Source: a virus
Lineage: Duplodnaviria; Heunggongvirae; Uroviricota; Caudoviricetes
Length of the DNA: 53,117 bases
Reading direction: 5' to 3' (one strand)
IMG/VR virus record: IMGVR_UViG_2718218452_000009
Position 1 is the first letter of the stretch, and every line of letters begins with the position of its first letter. Shown piece by piece: positions 1-53,117 of the stretch. Under the pieces are notes generated by a model. The model made no database searches. It was not told where the DNA came from and was given only the letters and a program-made list of their open reading frames with translations. The translations under genes and the position numbers were made by a program.

Positions 1-1074
1 TCATTTGTCGATTTCAATTTTGTCCCATTCCCGTCCACGGCTGTCTCTATACCGCGCCGCCATTGAATCTGATTTATGCCCGAGAAGACGTTGAGCAAAT
101 TTATCGCCAATCTGGTTCCGGTATAGCCTCGCTGACAGGCTACGCAGTTCATGGAATGTTGGCGGGTTTCCATCAAATGAGAGTCCAGATGCATTTCTCG
201 CCTTTGTAAAATACTTTGATACTGTTTTCGGGGAAAGAGGATCGTAATGCTTTGATGCGATTATAGTTTCACTGCTGCTGGCCTCCCTGCATTTCTGTAG
301 TGTATCAGCCAATGAGATATTGAGCGCGTCAATCGTTAGCGTTAGCGGAATGGCGAGTTTAGCCCCTGTTTTACTCTGTTCAATGTGAAGATGGTTGTCG
401 TTTATGTCTGACCATTTCATTCTGCACAAATCGCCGACTCTCTGCCCTGTAACGACGGCCAAATCCATCGCCAGCCTTAGCCAGATAGGGAGAGGTTCGG
501 CTGCATGGTAAATCTCGACATACTCATTAGCTGTCAGCCTTGAGCGCCTTACTTCTGACTTTGCTGTACGGGTTGCTGTTACCGGATTCGTTGCCACATG
601 CCCCTCGGCTATTGCTTCACGAAAAACGTCAACAAGGGTTGACCTGATTAATTTTGCGGAAGCTGCTTTACCTTCTGCTACGTAGGTGTTTAGCATTGCT
701 GCCACTTCTTTCGTTGATATGTCAGTGAGCGGTTTGTCCGGCAATTTTCTTCGGATTGCCCTGATTTTGCTGGCGTAGTCGAGTAGAGTTTTCGGCCTGA
801 TCCCCCTTTCGGTGAGGATTGTTTCATATCGGTCAAGCCACACATGAAGAGTGATTGCGTCACCGCCTTTAATTCTGTCTATTAGTGATTTGCGTCCGCT
901 GTCTGAGAGTAACTCAATATTGGCCTGTATTGCTTCAGTGATTGCTATCCTCCTGTCTCGGCCTAAACCAAACTCTTTACCCGTCCTTGGGTCCCTGTAG
1001 CAGTAATATCCATTGTTTCTTATATAAAGGTTAGGGGGTAAATCCCGGCGCTCATGACTTCGCCTTCTTCCCAT
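1..1074 (-). CDS. int: Phage integrase (tyrosine recombinase), lambda Int family
   Basis: 357-aa ORF; translation MGRRRSHERRDLPPNLYIRNNGYYCYRDPRTGKEFGLG... matches lambda Int from memory; window begins at its stop codon. Confidence 0.93.
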   Translation of the reverse strand: MGRRRSHERRDLPPNLYIRNNGYYCYRDPRTGKEFGLGRDRRIAITEAIQANIELLSDSGRKSLIDRIKGGDAITLHVWLDRYETILTERGIRPKTLLDYASKIRAIRRKLPDKPLTDISTKEVAAMLNTYVAEGKAASAKLIRSTLVDVFREAIAEGHVATNPVTATRTAKSEVRRSRLTANEYVEIYHAAEPLPIWLRLAMDLAVVTGQRVGDLCRMKWSDINDNHLHIEQSKTGAKLAIPLTLTIDALNISLADTLQKCREASSSETIIASKHYDPLSPKTVSKYFTKARNASGLSFDGNPPTFHELRSLSARLYRNQIGDKFAQRLLGHKSDSMAARYRDSRGREWDKIEIDK

Positions 1075-1270
1075 TTCTGATCCTCTTCAAAAGGCTACCT
1101 GTTACTGGTCGATTTAAGTCAACCTTTACCGCTGATTCGTGGAACAGATACTCTCTTCCATCCTTAACCGGAGGAGGGAATATCCTGCATTCGCGCACCC
1201 ATCGACGAACTGTTTCAAGGCTTCTTGGGCGTCGCTGGCGAGCGTTCCACTCCTGAAGTGTCAAGTACAT
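1052..1270 (-). CDS. xis: Excisionase
   Basis: Internal Met of the 102-aa ORF gives MYLTLQEWNARQRRPRSLETVRRWVRECRIFPPPVKDGREYLFHESAVKVDLNRP..., matching lambda Xis; overlaps int start as in lambda. Confidence 0.9.
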   Translation of the reverse strand: MYLTLQEWNARQRRPRSLETVRRWVRECRIFPPPVKDGREYLFHESAVKVDLNRPVTGSLLKRIRNGKKAKS

Positions 1271-1387
1271 CGCAAAGTCTCCGCAATTACACGCAAGAAA
1301 AAGCCGCATTGATGCGGCGATGGTAGGTCTGGATATCATTGAGCAATGAACAGGCCTCACCGAGTGTGAGGCGGTGTTATTTCATGG

Positions 1388-1732
1388 TTAGTCCTTGCGT
1401 AGCTCGCTGATTCTTCTGTAAGTCTCTGGTGCTTTGTTTCCGTGTATCTTCATTTCAGACTTCAACAGAGCAACGAGGGAATCCCATTCGTTGAGGATTC
1501 CTTTGAATGCCGGAACGCGCTTTGCAACCTTGTTGAATGAATCTCTGATTTCTGGAATCTGCTCAACAAGTGCAACGCATCGTCTGAAATCGGCTGCGTC
1601 ATGGGGAGCGCCGAAGTGATGACCATAGATATTCTTTTTCAGTCCACATGCGATTGAGGCAAGAGTTGCGCTACTGATGCCAACATCGCCAGTCGATTGC
1701 CATTTCAAAACCTTCATAGCCAAATCTGACAT
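1388..1732 (-). CDS. Hypothetical early-left (b-region-like) protein
   Basis: 114-aa ORF in the int-proximal accessory block; no family recognised. Confidence 0.5.
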   Translation of the reverse strand: MSDLAMKVLKWQSTGDVGISSATLASIACGLKKNIYGHHFGAPHDAADFRRCVALVEQIPEIRDSFNKVAKRVPAFKGILNEWDSLVALLKSEMKIHGNKAPETYRRISELRKD

Positions 1733-1746
1733 TTCTTGTCTCCAAT

Positions 1747-1769
1747 AAAAAAAACCGCCATCAGGCGGC
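1747..1769 (-). terminator. Candidate rho-independent terminator in the leftward transcript
   Basis: Minus-strand reading CCGCC-TGAT-GGCGG followed by a T9 run. Confidence 0.5.
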
Positions 1770-1834
1770 TTGGTGTTCTTTCAGTTCTTCAATTCGAATA
1801 TTGGTTACATTGTTTTCATATATGAATAAATAAA

Positions 1835-50964: not shown

Positions 50965-51507
50965 ATGAAGCTCATTCTTGCGACGCGTAATTATTATCTG
51001 GAATATGGTTTGCGTTTGTTACTGAAAGGATGCCGTGTAATTCTGGCTCAAGAATTTTTTATGCCGGAAAATCGCAGGGTTATTCTGGATAGTAAAGAAT
51101 CCTGGTTAATAATCTGTGATAGTCAGTTGGGCCATTTAATGCGCAGCATGTTTCAGGGACGCCGTTTTATTCAGCTGGATCTGGAAGCGTTGAAAGGGGG
51201 ACATGATATACATAATGCTGTGCGTAACAGATTGTGGACCTGGAACAAAAAAGCACGGGCACTGACGATGTCAGAGATGGTGGTGATGTTTGGATATATC
51301 TACCGTCAGTTGCGTCCGTCCCATCTCGCCAGTGAGATGAGGGTAAACATAAAAACAGTTAACACTTTCCTGTATTCAGGGCTGGCGAAAAATGGGCTCA
51401 AAAGAAGTAGTGTAAGGTTGCTGGCAATTTCTGAGAACAAGCGAATAGGGCATTATTCCGGAGCAGGACAGGGTAATCACGCAGGTGGTGATACTGGGTG
51501 CGGATAA
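50965..51507 (+). CDS. Putative LuxR-family (GadE/YhiF-like) transcriptional regulator; 3' end runs into repeat copy B
   Basis: 180 aa; C-terminal segment LTMSEMVVMFGYIYRQLRPSHLASEMRVNIKTVNTFLYSGLAKNGLK fits a LuxR-type HTH pattern; family call from pattern only. Confidence 0.45.
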   Translation: MKLILATRNYYLEYGLRLLLKGCRVILAQEFFMPENRRVILDSKESWLIICDSQLGHLMRSMFQGRRFIQLDLEALKGGHDIHNAVRNRLWTWNKKARALTMSEMVVMFGYIYRQLRPSHLASEMRVNIKTVNTFLYSGLAKNGLKRSSVRLLAISENKRIGHYSGAGQGNHAGGDTGCG

Positions 51508-51585
51508 AAAGCCGATACAGTGCGTGGTGAGGCCGCTGCAAATTCGGTGTGCTGATGGGACGAGGGAAAAATTTGTGGATGACAT
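51449..51585 (+). repeat. Direct repeat copy B (~140 bp)
   Basis: Near-identical to 50604..50744; overlaps the 3' end of the regulator ORF. Confidence 0.8.
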
Positions 51586-51636
51586 TTGTTGTGGACCTTT
51601 AAGTCTGGAGTTCAAATTAAAACAGGGAGCTTTATT

Positions 51637-52218
51637 ATGCCATTAACCTCAGATATTAATTCATCTTCGTTCCATCTTGGAATGGAGGTTCTTCGTGCTC
51701 AAGTTGCAGCCACTGGGCGTGGAGAATTTACAATGGGTGGTGAAACTGTCAGAATTGAATATAGCCCAACAGATGGGCGCTTTCTGGCCAGCGATGGCAC
51801 TGGGGGATTATTTACTGAATTATTGCTTTTAGGGTTCAATAATGGGCCTCAAGCTCTTGGCGAGAGAATGTTAAGTATTCTTTCAGGATCAGATGCAGGT
51901 GAAACACAATCGCAAGTGACTCCTCAGGATAAAATATATCAATGTAAGTTTTCTGTTAATACAGAGAGCCTCCAGTGTCCCTCTGATGCAACTCGATGCC
52001 CAATTATACTGGAAACACCAGAAGAAGGGGTATTTGTCAAAAATTCAGATAGTTCAGCAGTATGCACTTTATTTGATGTTGATGCACTTTCTCGCGTGGT
52101 TAATGACGGTTCAGTTCACCCTCTGACACGAGCTCCAATAACCCCATCAATGATTGTTAAACCAGAAGAGTGTAAATATGACCCTGCAAGGGGAAGCTTT
52201 ATTATAAAAGATAGTTAA
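51637..52218 (+). CDS. nleG: NleG-family type III secreted effector (U-box E3 ubiquitin ligase-like)
   Basis: MPLTSDINSSSFHLGMEVLRAQVAATGRGEFTMGGETVRIEYSPTDGRF...; C-terminal ...CPIILETPEEGVFVKNSD...CTLFD...HPLTRAPITPSMIVKPEECKYD matches the conserved NleG U-box region from memory. Confidence 0.7.
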   Translation: MPLTSDINSSSFHLGMEVLRAQVAATGRGEFTMGGETVRIEYSPTDGRFLASDGTGGLFTELLLLGFNNGPQALGERMLSILSGSDAGETQSQVTPQDKIYQCKFSVNTESLQCPSDATRCPIILETPEEGVFVKNSDSSAVCTLFDVDALSRVVNDGSVHPLTRAPITPSMIVKPEECKYDPARGSFIIKDS

Positions 52219-52418
52219 GATGTTTCAAATGAAACAATATTAACTTCCGATAATTTATATAAAAACACCACAGGCATTCGGGGCCTGTGGTTGGTAAAAC
52301 AATATAATACGCGAGTTATTTTTCATGAGCTGGAGAGAAAACAATCAAGGTAAGTAGTATTATTTCACAAAATACCGGGCACTTTCTGGTGCCGCATCGT
52401 TCAGAGCTTCGGTGTATA

Positions 52419-53117
52419 ATGAATGAAATACGTAGTAACCCTGTAAAATTTCTGGAAGAGCATTTAATTCTTAATCCACAGCGCTATGCCCATCATGATG
52501 AGACATCTTTAATTACAGTTAATATTACAAGAGAGGATGGCTTGTTAAGACTAAAAGAAACGGAAGATGATATGGCTGGTAGTGATTATATTCTGTTTAC
52601 AGGTATGCGTGATACTGATAGTCCGGACCGCTTTGATGCACCTGCAGTTGTAAGCTTGAGTAATCAGTGTATAAGCCTCCGGCGAAATGATATTTCTCAA
52701 ACTATCCAGCAAAGTTCACCGTTATGGCTAACCAATCAGCAAAGCGGCTGTAGTGTTCTTATTGTTCGCCATGGATTATCAGAATCTGGAGAACAGTCGT
52801 ATTCAATGATACATATGCGCCCAAGGGATAGTAACGATTTCGTCGATGAGTTTACGCCAGCGCTTTACGCTAATACTCAGGAGATTTTGCTGGAGAGGGA
52901 TATTCAGCGTACTCTTGCTAACACCTTTCCTAATGAACATCCGGAAGCCTTAATTTTGGTTCCGTCAGCGGAAAAATTTATTGTAGATGGCAACAGCATT
53001 CAACTGATTGGTATTGGTAATGAGTTGGGAGAGTTTGATTTTTACAGACAAATTTATCCTGTGACAGGAGGAGAGCACCTGGTTGAAGCTTTGATGTGGA
53101 CGCATTTGCCTGCATGA
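52419..53117 (+). CDS. Hypothetical protein, candidate secreted effector (unknown family)
   Basis: ORF adjacent to nleG in AT-rich cargo; start uncertain (GTG at 52389 or ATG at 52419); window ends at its stop codon. Confidence 0.4.
   Translation: MNEIRSNPVKFLEEHLILNPQRYAHHDETSLITVNITREDGLLRLKETEDDMAGSDYILFTGMRDTDSPDRFDAPAVVSLSNQCISLRRNDISQTIQQSSPLWLTNQQSGCSVLIVRHGLSESGEQSYSMIHMRPRDSNDFVDEFTPALYANTQEILLERDIQRTLANTFPNEHPEALILVPSAEKFIVDGNSIQLIGIGNELGEFDFYRQIYPVTGGEHLVEALMWTHLPA

What the first reader, a model, noticed from the sequence alone, without database searches (positions are those of the whole stretch)
1..53117. Prophage combines multiple inactivating lesions with intact cargo genes
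P and M frameshifts, gam and ral truncations, an IS-disrupted ninB, absence of ninH and a shortened stf with no assembly gene all point to a prophage that can no longer complete a lytic cycle. Meanwhile cI, the cargo genes at the rex position, in the nin island, after Q, between I and J, and at the right end remain intact ORFs. This pattern suggests the host retains the element for its cargo. The cos site (cosN GGGCGGCGACCT at 27203..27214) and terminase genes are intact, so packaging by a helper phage remains conceivable.
Basis: inference. Interest (0 to 1): 0.4.

Follow-up and report, generated by a model that had tools for sequence, protein, structure and literature searches.

The report
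Lambda-like prophage with few fresh lesions
This is an ordinary lambda-family prophage of a cattle-type E. coli; as sequenced it has knock-out frameshifts in two essential genes and two insertion sequences, but nothing shows that the host keeps it for its cargo, and the small frameshifts could be sequencing errors.

Summary
The window is a lambdoid prophage at the torS/torT site. Its early genes are lambda-like, its head and tail genes are phage-21-like, and it carries type III effector genes. I compared it gene by gene with a near-identical, fully intact copy in strain OkiPb01675. Only five genes are broken: P (+G at 13096), M (-CC at 40591), gam (+A at 6522, last 8 residues lost), ninB (split by an IS629-like element at 15780-17089) and the first gene after Q (A7 to A6 at 23578). 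A second IS copy sits just after ren (13565-14855). Only P and M are essential. The ral stop codon is shared by all relatives. The missing ninH and the short tail fibre are normal for this lineage; functional phage 21 also lacks intact ninH. So the count of inactivating lesions is overstated, and one supposedly intact cargo gene is broken. The cosN coordinates, cI and the terminase genes check out. The P, M and gam indels occur in none of 5,426 complete RefSeq genomes. The gam insertion recurs on a different allele in a second assembly from what looks like the same submission batch, which hints at artefact. Six lesions fall as random hits would, and cargo genes show no substitutions against the intact relative, so selection for cargo cannot be inferred. 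The pattern is already known as the "defective prophage pool" of EHEC.

The parts
1..1270 (-). int (1-1074) and xis (1055-1270). Both are intact. attL lies outside the window.
   Evidence: 100% aa identity to the OkiPb01675 proteins. 75% and 99% identity to lambda Int and Xis. torS lies directly upstream in the relatives.
6513..6911 (-). gam with a +1 insertion (A at 6522). The last 8 residues are replaced by PG-stop. Accessory gene.
   Evidence: The extra base is absent from about 3,180 RefSeq genomes that carry this segment. It is present in GenBank CP010238.1 on a different allele and in a different prophage.
7787..7966 (-). ral, 59 aa. K60 is a stop codon relative to the 66-aa lambda Ral. 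The stop is shared by all close relatives.
   Evidence: The same 59-aa protein, WP_071533307.1, is annotated in C7 and OkiPb01675.
8824..10130 (-). Two-gene cargo cassette at the rex position (DUF1828 protein of 258 aa plus a 180-aa protein). Intact.
   Evidence: 100% identity. Pfam DUF1828. Weak hits to the PADLOC candidate system PDC-M24 A/B.
10228..10935 (-). cI-type repressor with HTH_3 and Peptidase_S24 domains. Intact.
11677..12576 (+). Replication gene O, which contains the origin. Intact and 99% identical to lambda O.
12573..13275 (+). Replication gene P with a +1 insertion (G at 13096). The product is 176 aa instead of 233. It lacks residues 177-233, which include the C-terminal lasso that binds DnaB.
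   Evidence: Domain map of lambda P from PMC12661323. The extra base is found in none of 2,094 genomes with this segment, and the truncated protein is not in the 15-billion-protein collection.
13565..14855 (-). IS629-like (IS3 family) copy 1, 1291 bp, inserted just after the ren stop codon. Target duplication ACC. A 19-bp deletion between GCCAGTA direct repeats at 13831 truncates orfB.
   Evidence: The deletion junction occurs in none of 22,243 IS places in RefSeq genomes.
15673..17397 (+). ninB split by IS629-like copy 2 (15780-17089, 1310 bp, transposase on the minus strand, target duplication TTAC).
   Evidence: The empty site is seen in OkiPb01675.
18080..19852 (-). 590-aa orphan cargo gene in a 34% GC island of the nin region. 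Intact.
   Evidence: Only 15 related clusters among 1.84 billion representatives. No Pfam or NCBIfam family. No fold match.
22224..22847 (+). Late antiterminator Q. Intact and 98% identical to lambda Q.
23100..23842 (+). First gene after Q (247-aa membrane protein in the intact relative). Frameshifted by an A7-to-A6 change at 23578. The change is shared with strain C7.
   Evidence: The truncated 167-aa product is on 289 contigs.
24708..25854 (+). Lysis genes (class II holin, lysozyme, Rz). Intact.
27173..27214 (+). cos site: cosQ GGGTCCT at 27173-27179 and cosN GGGCGGCGACCT at 27203-27214. Both match lambda. The cosB region downstream is unlike that of lambda or phage 21.
27431..29837 (+). Terminase genes Nu1 (27431-27937; start inferred from the Shine-Dalgarno sequence GGAGAGGAG) and A (27909-29837). 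Both intact. Nu1 is only 31-36% identical to the lambda and phage 21 Nu1 proteins.
29821..40507 (+). Head genes W, B, C, D, E, FI, FII and tail genes Z, U, V, G/T, H. All are full length. The G-T slippery site GGGAAAG lies at 37483.
   Evidence: About 91% nucleotide identity to phage 21 over 71% of the late region.
40504..40831 (+). Tail-tip gene M with a 2-bp deletion (CC, at 40591/40592). The frame shifts after codon 30 of 109.
   Evidence: The deletion is found in none of 3,248 genomes with this segment.
40831..48428 (+). Tail genes L, K, I and J, all intact. An Arc/Arc/Ant module (41546-43140) lies between L and K, and a 112-aa ORF (44544-44882) lies between I and J.
48496..50744 (+). lom homologue (48496-49095) and tail fibre: a 437-aa protein (49160-50473; tail-fibre N-terminal domain, collagen repeats, fibre C-terminal domain) plus an 89-aa protein with a fibre C-terminal domain (50475-50744). 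This is a complete fibre type different from lambda stf/tfa.
50965..53117 (+). Right-end cargo: a 180-aa ORF in a region annotated as pseudogene remnants in the relative, the T3SS effector NleG (51637-52218) and a 232-aa hypothetical protein (52419-53117). espJ and attR lie beyond the window end.

Best explanation
The window is a mosaic lambdoid prophage integrated between torS and torT. It combines four modules:
- lambda-type recombination, replication and Q genes;
- its own immunity region;
- a phage-21-like head and tail module with its own Nu1/cosB specificity;
- T3SS effector genes (NleG in the window, EspJ just outside) at the right end.

It belongs to a lineage that is otherwise intact and was recently mobile. 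Copies 99.7-99.9% identical, with every gene open, sit at the same site in other bovine and animal strains.

This copy acquired a handful of very recent, unselected hits. Two IS629-like insertions and a homopolymer frameshift in the gene after Q are shared with sister strain C7. Small indels in gam, P and M, plus a 19-bp deletion inside one IS, are private to this sequence.

Taken at face value, the P truncation blocks loading of DnaB at the phage origin, and the M frameshift blocks tail-tip assembly. The prophage could therefore still be derepressed, excised, express late genes, build heads and cut its own cos site. It could not replicate or make tails without proteins supplied in trans by co-resident lambdoid prophages.

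Cargo genes are intact simply because too little time has passed for them to be hit. One of them already is.

Shown: the anatomy, each lesion, and their absence from relatives. Inferred: the functional consequences, trans-complementation, and neutrality.
For: - Gene-by-gene comparison with OkiPb01675: 68 of 73 genes are full length at 99-100% aa identity. Only gam, P, ninB, the gene after Q and M are broken.
- Exact differences and their sequence contexts are listed, with translations.
- Both IS copies have target-site duplications, and both empty sites are seen in the relative.
- lambda P domain III spans about residues 120-192. Domain IV, the C-terminal lasso (193-233), makes the DnaB DH-LH contacts (PMC12661323). 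The product here ends at residue 176.
- The late module resembles phage 21. cosQ and cosN equal those of lambda, but Nu1 and cosB are distinct.
- The ninH fragment and 98-aa Gam annotation in functional phage 21 show that several 'lesions' are normal variation.
- The P, M and gam indels are private among 5,426 complete genomes, so they are recent.
- The lesion distribution fits random placement: 1 cargo hit against 0.85 expected, 2 essential-gene hits against 2.8 expected.
- In sister strain C7 another lambda-like prophage encodes an M protein with the same accession, WP_000847321.1, as the intact M of OkiPb01675.
- Packaging and transfer of comparably defective lambdoid prophages has been shown experimentally in O157 Sakai (PMC2669165).
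Against: - The three small frameshifting indels are seen in no other assembly, apart from gam.
- The gam insertion recurs at the same base on a different allele, in a different prophage, in a second GenBank assembly with a neighbouring accession, CP010238.1. Thousands of other genomes lack it.
- Neither CP010238.1 nor the window's source is in the RefSeq complete-genome set (best RefSeq hit).
- The ratio of private indels to private SNPs, 4:9, is unusually high.
- Some or all of the small indels may therefore be consensus errors. In that case the prophage is essentially intact apart from the IS insertions.
- No experimental data on induction exist for this strain.
- The source genome is not available, so co-resident helpers are only inferred from sister strain C7.
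Confidence: 0.55

Rival explanations
1. Artefact: the 1-2 bp indels in gam, P and M are consensus errors of the source assembly. The real prophage has intact P and M. It is disrupted only in the dispensable ninB, by an IS, and in the gene after Q. It is probably still an inducible phage that carries two IS copies.
For: - All three indels are absent from every one of 2,094-3,248 complete genomes that carry the same segments. The truncated P and M products are absent from a 15-billion-protein collection.
- The gam +A occurs at the identical position in a second assembly with a neighbouring accession, but on another allele and in another prophage. The flanking SNPs 12 and 60 bp away differ, which is hard to explain by descent.
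- That assembly is not in the RefSeq complete set, and neither is the window's source.
- The private indel:SNP ratio is 4:9, or 4:4 by events, against roughly 1:10 expected (P = 0.03 to 0.005).
- Sister strain C7 has none of the three indels.
Against: - None of the indels lies in a long homopolymer. The contexts are G to GG, CCC to C, and an A inserted between G and T.
- The 19-bp deletion flanked by 7-bp direct repeats looks like a genuine slippage event, so this copy does carry real private changes.
- 19 kb of the other suspect assembly shows only 2 single-base indels against its nearest relative, so it is not grossly error-prone.
- No read data could be examined.
Confidence: 0.3
2. Domestication: the host keeps a dead prophage because selection maintains its cargo (the rex-position cassette, the nin-island gene, the effector genes) while backbone genes decay.
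For: - Cargo genes other than the gene after Q are intact.
- The rex-position pair weakly resembles a candidate defence system.
- NleG, and EspJ in the relatives, are T3SS effectors useful to an attaching-effacing host.
- Cargo families are widespread in E. coli, each on several hundred to 1,000 or more contigs.
Against: - One cargo gene is broken, and 68 of 73 genes, including 27 of 29 essential backbone genes, are intact. There is no differential decay.
- The lesion distribution equals the random expectation.
- The lesions in essential genes are private and therefore very young.
- Cargo shows zero substitutions against the intact relative, so no dN/dS signal exists at this depth.
- Intact copies at the same site in other strains show that the lineage is a living phage.
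Confidence: 0.07
3. Helper-dependent mobile element: the P- M- genome is real and is still transmitted. It uses its own int/xis, cos, terminase and heads, and borrows lambda-type P and tail proteins from co-resident lambdoid prophages, as described for the O157 'defective prophage pool'.
For: - int, xis, cI, N, O, Q, the lysis genes, cosQ/cosN, Nu1, A and all head genes are intact.
- M residues 31-109 are 99% identical to lambda M. An identical M protein is encoded by a second prophage in sister strain C7.
- lambda-type P is present in 2,094 of 5,426 E. coli genomes.
- There is experimental precedent (PMC2669165).
Against: - The resident prophages of the source strain are unknown.
- Nu1 and cosB are a private specificity, so packaging must rely on the element's own late gene expression.
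- With both IS copies the genome is about 54 kb, near the capacity of lambda-type heads. Related phage records of 53-54 kb do exist.
- There are no induction data.
Confidence: 0.15

Closest known systems
Defective lambdoid prophages of EHEC O157 Sakai (Sp1-Sp18), the 'defective prophage pool' (Asadulghani et al. 2009, PMC2669165)
   Same: Lambdoid prophages that carry non-LEE effector genes and are damaged by IS629 insertions and frameshifts in replication, recombination or morphogenesis genes. They usually keep int/xis, terminase, Q and lysis genes. Rescue by co-resident prophages has been shown experimentally.
   Different: This copy is far less decayed: two essential genes are hit and 68 of 73 genes are intact. 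It sits at torS/torT in a non-O157 bovine-type background. Its lesions are private and unverified, and no induction data exist.
Intact sibling prophage at torS/torT in E. coli OkiPb01675 (NZ_AP042478.1), and also in strains JB2 and 13E0767
   Same: Same integration site, same gene order, and 99.7-99.9% nucleotide identity over the whole window apart from the IS copies.
   Different: It lacks both IS copies. P, M, gam, ninB and the gene after Q are all open.
Prophage at torS in E. coli C7 (NZ_CP010240.1)
   Same: Shares both IS insertions at the same sites and the frameshift after Q. It is 99.9% identical over window 1-39222.
   Different: It has intact P and gam and a full-length IS copy 1. 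An inversion through tape-measure gene H joins it to another lambda-like prophage.
Phage lambda and phage 21
   Same: xis, exo-bet-gam, O-P-ren and ninI-Q are 94-100% identical in protein to lambda. The late region has about 91% nucleotide identity to phage 21. cosQ and cosN are identical to lambda.
   Different: It has a different immunity region and int allele, a different ninB allele, a different Nu1/cosB, and a collagen-type side fibre. It has extra modules: an immI-like arc/ant module between L and K, a low-GC nin island, and effector genes.

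Membership tests
Lambdoid (lambda-like) temperate phage / prophage | Lambda gene order: int-xis, recombination genes, N, cI-cro-cII, O-P, nin region, Q, lysis genes, cos, terminase, head, tail, J | tested here: met
   All modules are present in the canonical order.
Lambdoid (lambda-like) temperate phage / prophage | Cohesive-end site with cosQ and cosN upstream of Nu1/A | tested here: met
   cosN lies at 27203-27214 and cosQ at 27173-27179.
Lambdoid (lambda-like) temperate phage / prophage | Integrated with flanking att sites | tested here: inconclusive
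   The window ends inside the prophage. In the relatives the element lies between torS and torT. Only an imperfect 19-bp similarity between the two junction regions was found.
Defective (cryptic) prophage | Loss of at least one function essential for autonomous lytic growth | tested here: met
   P is truncated at residue 176 and M is frameshifted after codon 30 in the sequence as given. This holds only if the sequence is correct.
Defective (cryptic) prophage | Failure to produce infectious particles on induction | not testable with these tools
   This needs mitomycin C or UV induction of the source strain.
IS3 family, IS629/IS1203 group | About 1310 bp, terminal inverted repeats TGAACCGCCCCGG..., orfA/orfB with a programmed frameshift, and a 3-4 bp target duplication | tested here: met
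   (element ends; duplications ACC and TTAC). (RefSeq annotation: IS3 family transposase, programmed frameshift). One search lists an IS629 transposase among the features under the matching segment of phage JLK-2012. Copy 1 has a 19-bp deletion in orfB.
Domesticated prophage retained for cargo | Backbone genes decay while cargo genes are preferentially preserved, seen as an excess of lesions in the backbone or lower dN/dS in the cargo | tested here: not met
   There was 1 cargo hit against 0.85 expected and 2 essential-gene hits against 2.8 expected among 6 events. One cargo gene is frameshifted. Cargo has no substitutions against the relatives, so dN/dS is undefined.
Phage satellite (P4 / PICI-type helper-dependent element) | Lacks most structural genes and carries dedicated helper-exploitation genes | tested here: not met
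   A full set of head and tail genes is present apart from the M frameshift. No satellite hallmark genes were seen in the family scans.

The most novel reading that the evidence does not exclude
The P and M lesions are real, and the element persists and spreads as a helper-dependent carrier of effector genes. It uses its own private Nu1/cosB packaging specificity and its own heads, and takes lambda-type P and tail-tip proteins from co-resident lambdoid prophages. That would be a natural intermediate between an autonomous phage and a satellite-like element.
Probability: 0.12. Interest if true: 0.3.

Novelty: already known. Interest (0 to 1): 0.12.

Why it matters
It matters little beyond good annotation. 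Effector-carrying lambdoid prophages with IS629 insertions and scattered frameshifts are a textbook feature of EHEC and EPEC genomes, and their trans-complementation has been shown experimentally. The useful lessons are methodological:

- Comparison with phage lambda alone over-counts lesions. The gam start choice, the ral length, ninH and the stf type are lineage variation.
- A near-identical intact relative is the right yardstick.
- Intactness of cargo genes in a copy whose damage is only a few mutations old says nothing about selection.

If the lesions are real, the strain would be a convenient natural P- M- mutant for testing inter-prophage complementation.

Tried and rejected
- Source genome. 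Exact-product look-ups for the truncated P, the 132-aa Gam and the M fragment found nothing. Only the 92-aa Gam product matched, in two GenBank assemblies. The one that could be read, CP010238.1, carries it in a different prophage. The source itself was not retrieved.
- att sites. I looked for an att core shared by the torS-int and espJ-torT junctions of the intact relative. There is no exact repeat of 10 bp or more, only an imperfect 19-bp similarity. I left this open because it lies outside the window.
- Tape-measure SNP cluster. I tested whether the private cluster of 4 SNPs in H (38992-39010) was copied from the second lambda-like prophage of C7. It was not; there is no alignment in that stretch.
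- Quality of the suspect sister assembly. I checked whether it is generally indel-rich. It shows 2 single-base indels in 19 kb against a relative 99.2% identical, which is not decisive.
- The 590-aa nin-island protein. It has no Pfam, NCBIfam, PADLOC or PDB sequence hit and only 15 related clusters. The AlphaFold model (pLDDT 64.6) found no fold match. Its function remains unknown.
- The PHROG label 'queuine tRNA-ribosyltransferase' for the 251-aa early-left protein was not backed by Pfam, so I disregarded it.
- Oversize genome as an extra lesion. With both IS copies the genome is about 54 kb. I did not pursue this, because related phage records of 53-54 kb exist.

Full report
WHAT THE WINDOW IS

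The 53,117-bp window begins at the stop codon of a tyrosine integrase gene and ends at the end of a hypothetical gene. It carries the full lambda gene order: int-xis, exo-bet-gam-kil-cIII, ral, N, a two-gene cassette where lambda has rex, cI, cro, cII, O, P, ren, a nin region, Q, lysis genes, cos, Nu1-A, head genes, tail genes, J, lom, a side fibre and effector genes.

In the closest complete genomes the element lies between torS and torT, and an espJ gene follows the last gene of the window. The att sites and espJ are therefore outside the window.

Relative to reference phages the element is a mosaic.
- xis, exo, bet, gam, O, P, ren, ninI and Q are 94-100% identical in protein to lambda.
- The late region has about 91% nucleotide identity to phage 21 over 71% of its length.
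- No phage record covers more than 47% of the early half.

THE RIGHT YARDSTICK

Two relatives were decisive.
- E. coli OkiPb01675 (bovine faeces) carries the same prophage at the same site without IS elements, and every gene is annotated as intact.
- E. coli C7 (cow) shares both IS insertions and is 99.9% identical over window 1-39222. Beyond that point it has an inversion through the tape-measure gene.

Base-by-base alignments list every difference. I then mapped all 73 annotated OkiPb01675 proteins onto the window. 68 are full length at 99-100% identity. The exceptions are gam, P, ninB, the first gene after Q, and M.

CHECK OF EACH CLAIMED LESION

P. An extra G at 13096 changes R176 to P and is followed directly by a stop codon, leaving 176 of 233 residues. 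In lambda P, domain III spans about residues 120-192. Domain IV (193-233) is the C-terminal lasso whose residues 215-226 pack against the DnaB DH/LH helices (PMC12661323). The loss is very likely inactivating (inference).

M. CC is missing at 40591/40592 and the frame shifts after codon 30 of 109. M is a tail-tip assembly protein required for lambda tail formation (established knowledge).

gam. An extra A at 6522 replaces the last eight residues (QVDIDSEV) with PG-stop. The 138-codon lambda-type ORF is otherwise 96% identical to lambda gam. gam is an accessory gene.

ral. Codon 60 is a stop, giving 59 instead of 66 aa. The same 59-aa protein is annotated in C7 and OkiPb01675. The stop is ancestral in this lineage and lies in a dispensable gene.

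ninB. It is split by a 1310-bp IS3-family, IS629-like element at 15780-17089 with a TTAC duplication. The empty site is present in OkiPb01675. The lambda nin region is dispensable (established knowledge: the nin5 deletion).

ninH. There is no homologue. The intact relatives lack it too. Functional phage 21 has only a 10-codon ninH fragment.

stf. The 437-aa protein has a prophage tail-fibre N-terminal domain, collagen repeats and a fibre C-terminal domain. It is followed by an 89-aa protein with a fibre C-terminal domain. The arrangement is identical in the intact relatives. This is a different, complete fibre type and not a shortened lambda stf. Side fibres are dispensable in laboratory lambda (established knowledge).

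In total, two lesions hit essential genes, two or three hit accessory genes, and two items are not lesions of this copy.

- A second IS629-like copy at 13565-14855 is inserted immediately after the ren stop codon, with the duplication ACC. It carries a 19-bp deletion between GCCAGTA direct repeats that truncates its orfB.
C7 shares the change, and there the gene is annotated as a frameshifted pseudogene. The truncated 167-aa product is on 289 contigs.

WHAT IS INTACT

- cI has HTH_3 and Peptidase_S24 domains.
- N, O, Q, the holin, the lysozyme and Rz are intact.
- cosN lies exactly at 27203-27214, and cosQ (GGGTCCT) at 27173-27179. About 130 bp upstream of cosN and about 30 bp downstream are nearly identical to lambda.
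- cosB resembles neither lambda nor phage 21. Nu1 is only 66/184 and 57/184 identical to the lambda and phage 21 proteins. Its best start is 27431, behind the Shine-Dalgarno sequence GGAGAGGAG. Packaging therefore depends on the element's own terminase, which is intact.
- The G/T pair keeps the slippery GGGAAAG at 37483, so that frame change is the normal programmed one.

ARE THE SMALL INDELS REAL?

I queried 121-bp segments centred on each lesion against 5,426 complete RefSeq E. coli genomes. None of the genomes carrying the segment has the indel: 2,094 for P, 3,248 for M and 3,177 for gam. The best hits all differ by exactly the gap. The 19-bp IS deletion is also unique among 22,243 IS places.

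The truncated P and M products are absent from a 15-billion-protein collection. The 92-aa truncated Gam is in that collection, in two GenBank assemblies only. The one that could be read, CP010238.1, holds it in a different prophage at the ybhC site and on a different gam allele.
- Flanking SNPs 12 bp and 60 bp from the insertion differ between the two.
- No RefSeq genome has the extra base on that allele either, although 1,753 records are at least 99% identical.
- CP010238 has no counterpart in the RefSeq complete set. The window's source is also absent, the best hit being C7 with differences.

It sits directly beside a CCAGG site. This looks more like a systematic consensus error than shared descent, though a short gene-conversion tract or a mutational hotspot cannot be excluded.

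The window has 4 private indels against 9 private SNPs, and those SNPs fall into about 4 clusters. That is high against a rough 1:10 expectation (P = 0.03 to 0.005).

Some points argue against artefact.
- None of the indels lies in a long homopolymer.
- The 19-bp deletion between direct repeats looks like genuine slippage.
- 19 kb of CP010238 shows only two single-base indels against a relative 99.2% identical.

I put the artefact reading at about 0.3.

DOES THE PATTERN INDICATE RETENTION FOR CARGO?

No, for three reasons.

First, there is no differential decay. 27 of 29 essential backbone genes are intact and one cargo gene is broken.

Six disruptive events would then be expected to hit cargo 0.85 times (1 observed) and essential genes 2.8 times (2 observed).

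Third, the damage is extremely young.
- The window differs from C7 by 11 substitutions and 3 indel events over 39 kb.
- It differs from OkiPb01675 by 5 substitutions and 2 single-base indels over the first 13.5 kb.
- All cargo proteins are 100% identical to those of the intact relative.

Intact, near-identical copies at the same site in other strains show that the lineage is a living phage.

MOST LIKELY BIOLOGY

Taken at face value, the copy can still do most things. It can be derepressed (an S24-type cI), excise (int and xis intact), transcribe early and late operons (N and Q intact), build proheads, cut cos and lyse the cell. The IS copies lie opposite to pR transcription in a dispensable region. 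An IS629 insertion upstream of the lysis region does not stop transfer of the Sakai Stx2 phage Sp5 (PMC2669165).

It cannot load DnaB at its origin or assemble tail tips. Both missing proteins act in trans.
- In sister strain C7 another lambda-like prophage encodes an M protein with the same accession as the intact M of OkiPb01675.
- lambda-type P is present in 2,094 of 5,426 E. coli genomes.

Rescue by co-resident prophages is therefore plausible. It matches what was shown experimentally for the O157 Sakai 'defective prophage pool', where prophages with head, tail, terminase or replication defects were still excised, packaged and in some cases transferred (PMC2669165). It needs one refinement: the private Nu1/cosB specificity means the element must use its own terminase.

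COMPARISON WITH WHAT IS KNOWN, AND VERDICT

Every element here has direct precedent: lambdoid effector-carrying prophages, IS629 hits, scattered frameshifts and inter-prophage complementation. The finding is an accurate but over-counted description of an ordinary, lightly damaged prophage. Its evolutionary interpretation is unsupported, and its key lesions need read-level confirmation. Novelty: already known. Interest: about 0.12.

SIDE OBSERVATIONS

These are listed separately in the report:
- a weak match of the rex-position cassette to the PADLOC candidate system PDC-M24;
- a 590-aa orphan gene in a 34% GC nin island, with a disordered Ser/Thr-rich N-terminus, a helical body and no fold match;
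- an Arc/Arc/Ant module between tail genes L and K;
- the third-type Nu1/cosB.

Noticed in passing
window 8824-10130 (-): The two-gene cassette at the rex position (DUF1828 protein of 258 aa plus a 180-aa protein with a sub-threshold DUF6978 hit) weakly matches both components of the PADLOC candidate defence system PDC-M24 (E = 6e-7 and 1.5e-3). It may be a superinfection-exclusion or defence cargo.
   Followed up: partly
window 18080-19852 (-), island about 17620-20420: A 590-aa orphan gene lies in a 34% GC island between a 16-codon ninF remnant (17573-17620) and an HNH-AP2 endonuclease gene (20422-20988). Only 15 related clusters exist among 1.84 billion representatives. In the AlphaFold model residues 1-126 are disordered and Ser/Thr-rich and the rest is all-helical. 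There is no PDB fold match. A type III effector is a guess only.
   Followed up: partly
window 41546-43140: A P22 immI-like module (two Arc-family genes and a P22-type antirepressor Ant) is inserted between tail genes L and K. It offers a possible cI-independent induction route.
   Followed up: no
window 27173-27937: cosQ, cosN and their near flanks are nearly identical to lambda. cosB and the small terminase subunit Nu1 are a third type, 31-36% identical to the lambda and phage 21 Nu1 proteins. The annotated Nu1 start (27458) is probably too short; ATG 27431 has a strong Shine-Dalgarno sequence.
   Followed up: partly
window 6522; L008 about 10270: The identical +1 insertion in gam, directly beside a Dcm CCAGG site, occurs in GenBank CP010238.1 on a different gam allele and in a different prophage. 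It occurs in no RefSeq complete genome. Neither assembly is in the RefSeq complete set. It is either a systematic consensus error or a hotspot.
   Followed up: partly
window 13831 (inside IS copy 1, 13565-14855): A 19-bp deletion flanked by 7-bp direct repeats (GCCAGTA) truncates the transposase orfB of this IS629-like copy. It is unique among 22,243 IS places in RefSeq genomes. The two IS copies are only about 94% identical to each other.
   Followed up: yes
window 23573-23578: The membrane-protein gene after Q carries an A6 tract where the intact relative has A7. The truncated 167-aa allele is found on 289 contigs. It is either a common pseudogene allele or a slippage-prone tract.
   Followed up: partly
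window 20168-20173: There is one extra copy of the hexamer TATTTC relative to OkiPb01675, shared with C7, in the AT-rich intergenic region upstream of the 590-aa gene.
   Followed up: no
window about 39222; L003 18193-20830: In sister strain C7 the tape-measure gene H is the breakpoint of an inversion. It joins this prophage to a copy of a second lambda-like prophage that is also present near ompT. It is either a real inter-prophage recombination or an assembly problem in C7.
   Followed up: partly
window 5943-6378 and 38992-39010: Substitutions that separate the window from its relatives cluster in bet (5943-6378; three of them, at 6006, 6270 and 6378, differ from both relatives) and in a 19-bp stretch of H (4 SNPs). 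This suggests short gene-conversion patches from other prophages. The window's bases at 6006, 6270 and 6378 match the allele seen in CP010238.1. No donor was found for the H patch.
   Followed up: partly
window 50745-51636: Between the fibre genes and nleG lies a 180-aa ORF (50965-51507; phrog_6585, unknown function). In OkiPb01675 this region is annotated as pseudogene fragments that include a tail-fibre C-terminus remnant. It is probably an older scar shared by the lineage.
   Followed up: no
window 2111-3665 (-): The early-left region encodes a dATP/dGTP pyrophosphohydrolase-DUF551 protein next to a 251-aa protein. PHROGs labels the latter's family 'queuine tRNA-ribosyltransferase', but Pfam gives no support.
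   Followed up: partly
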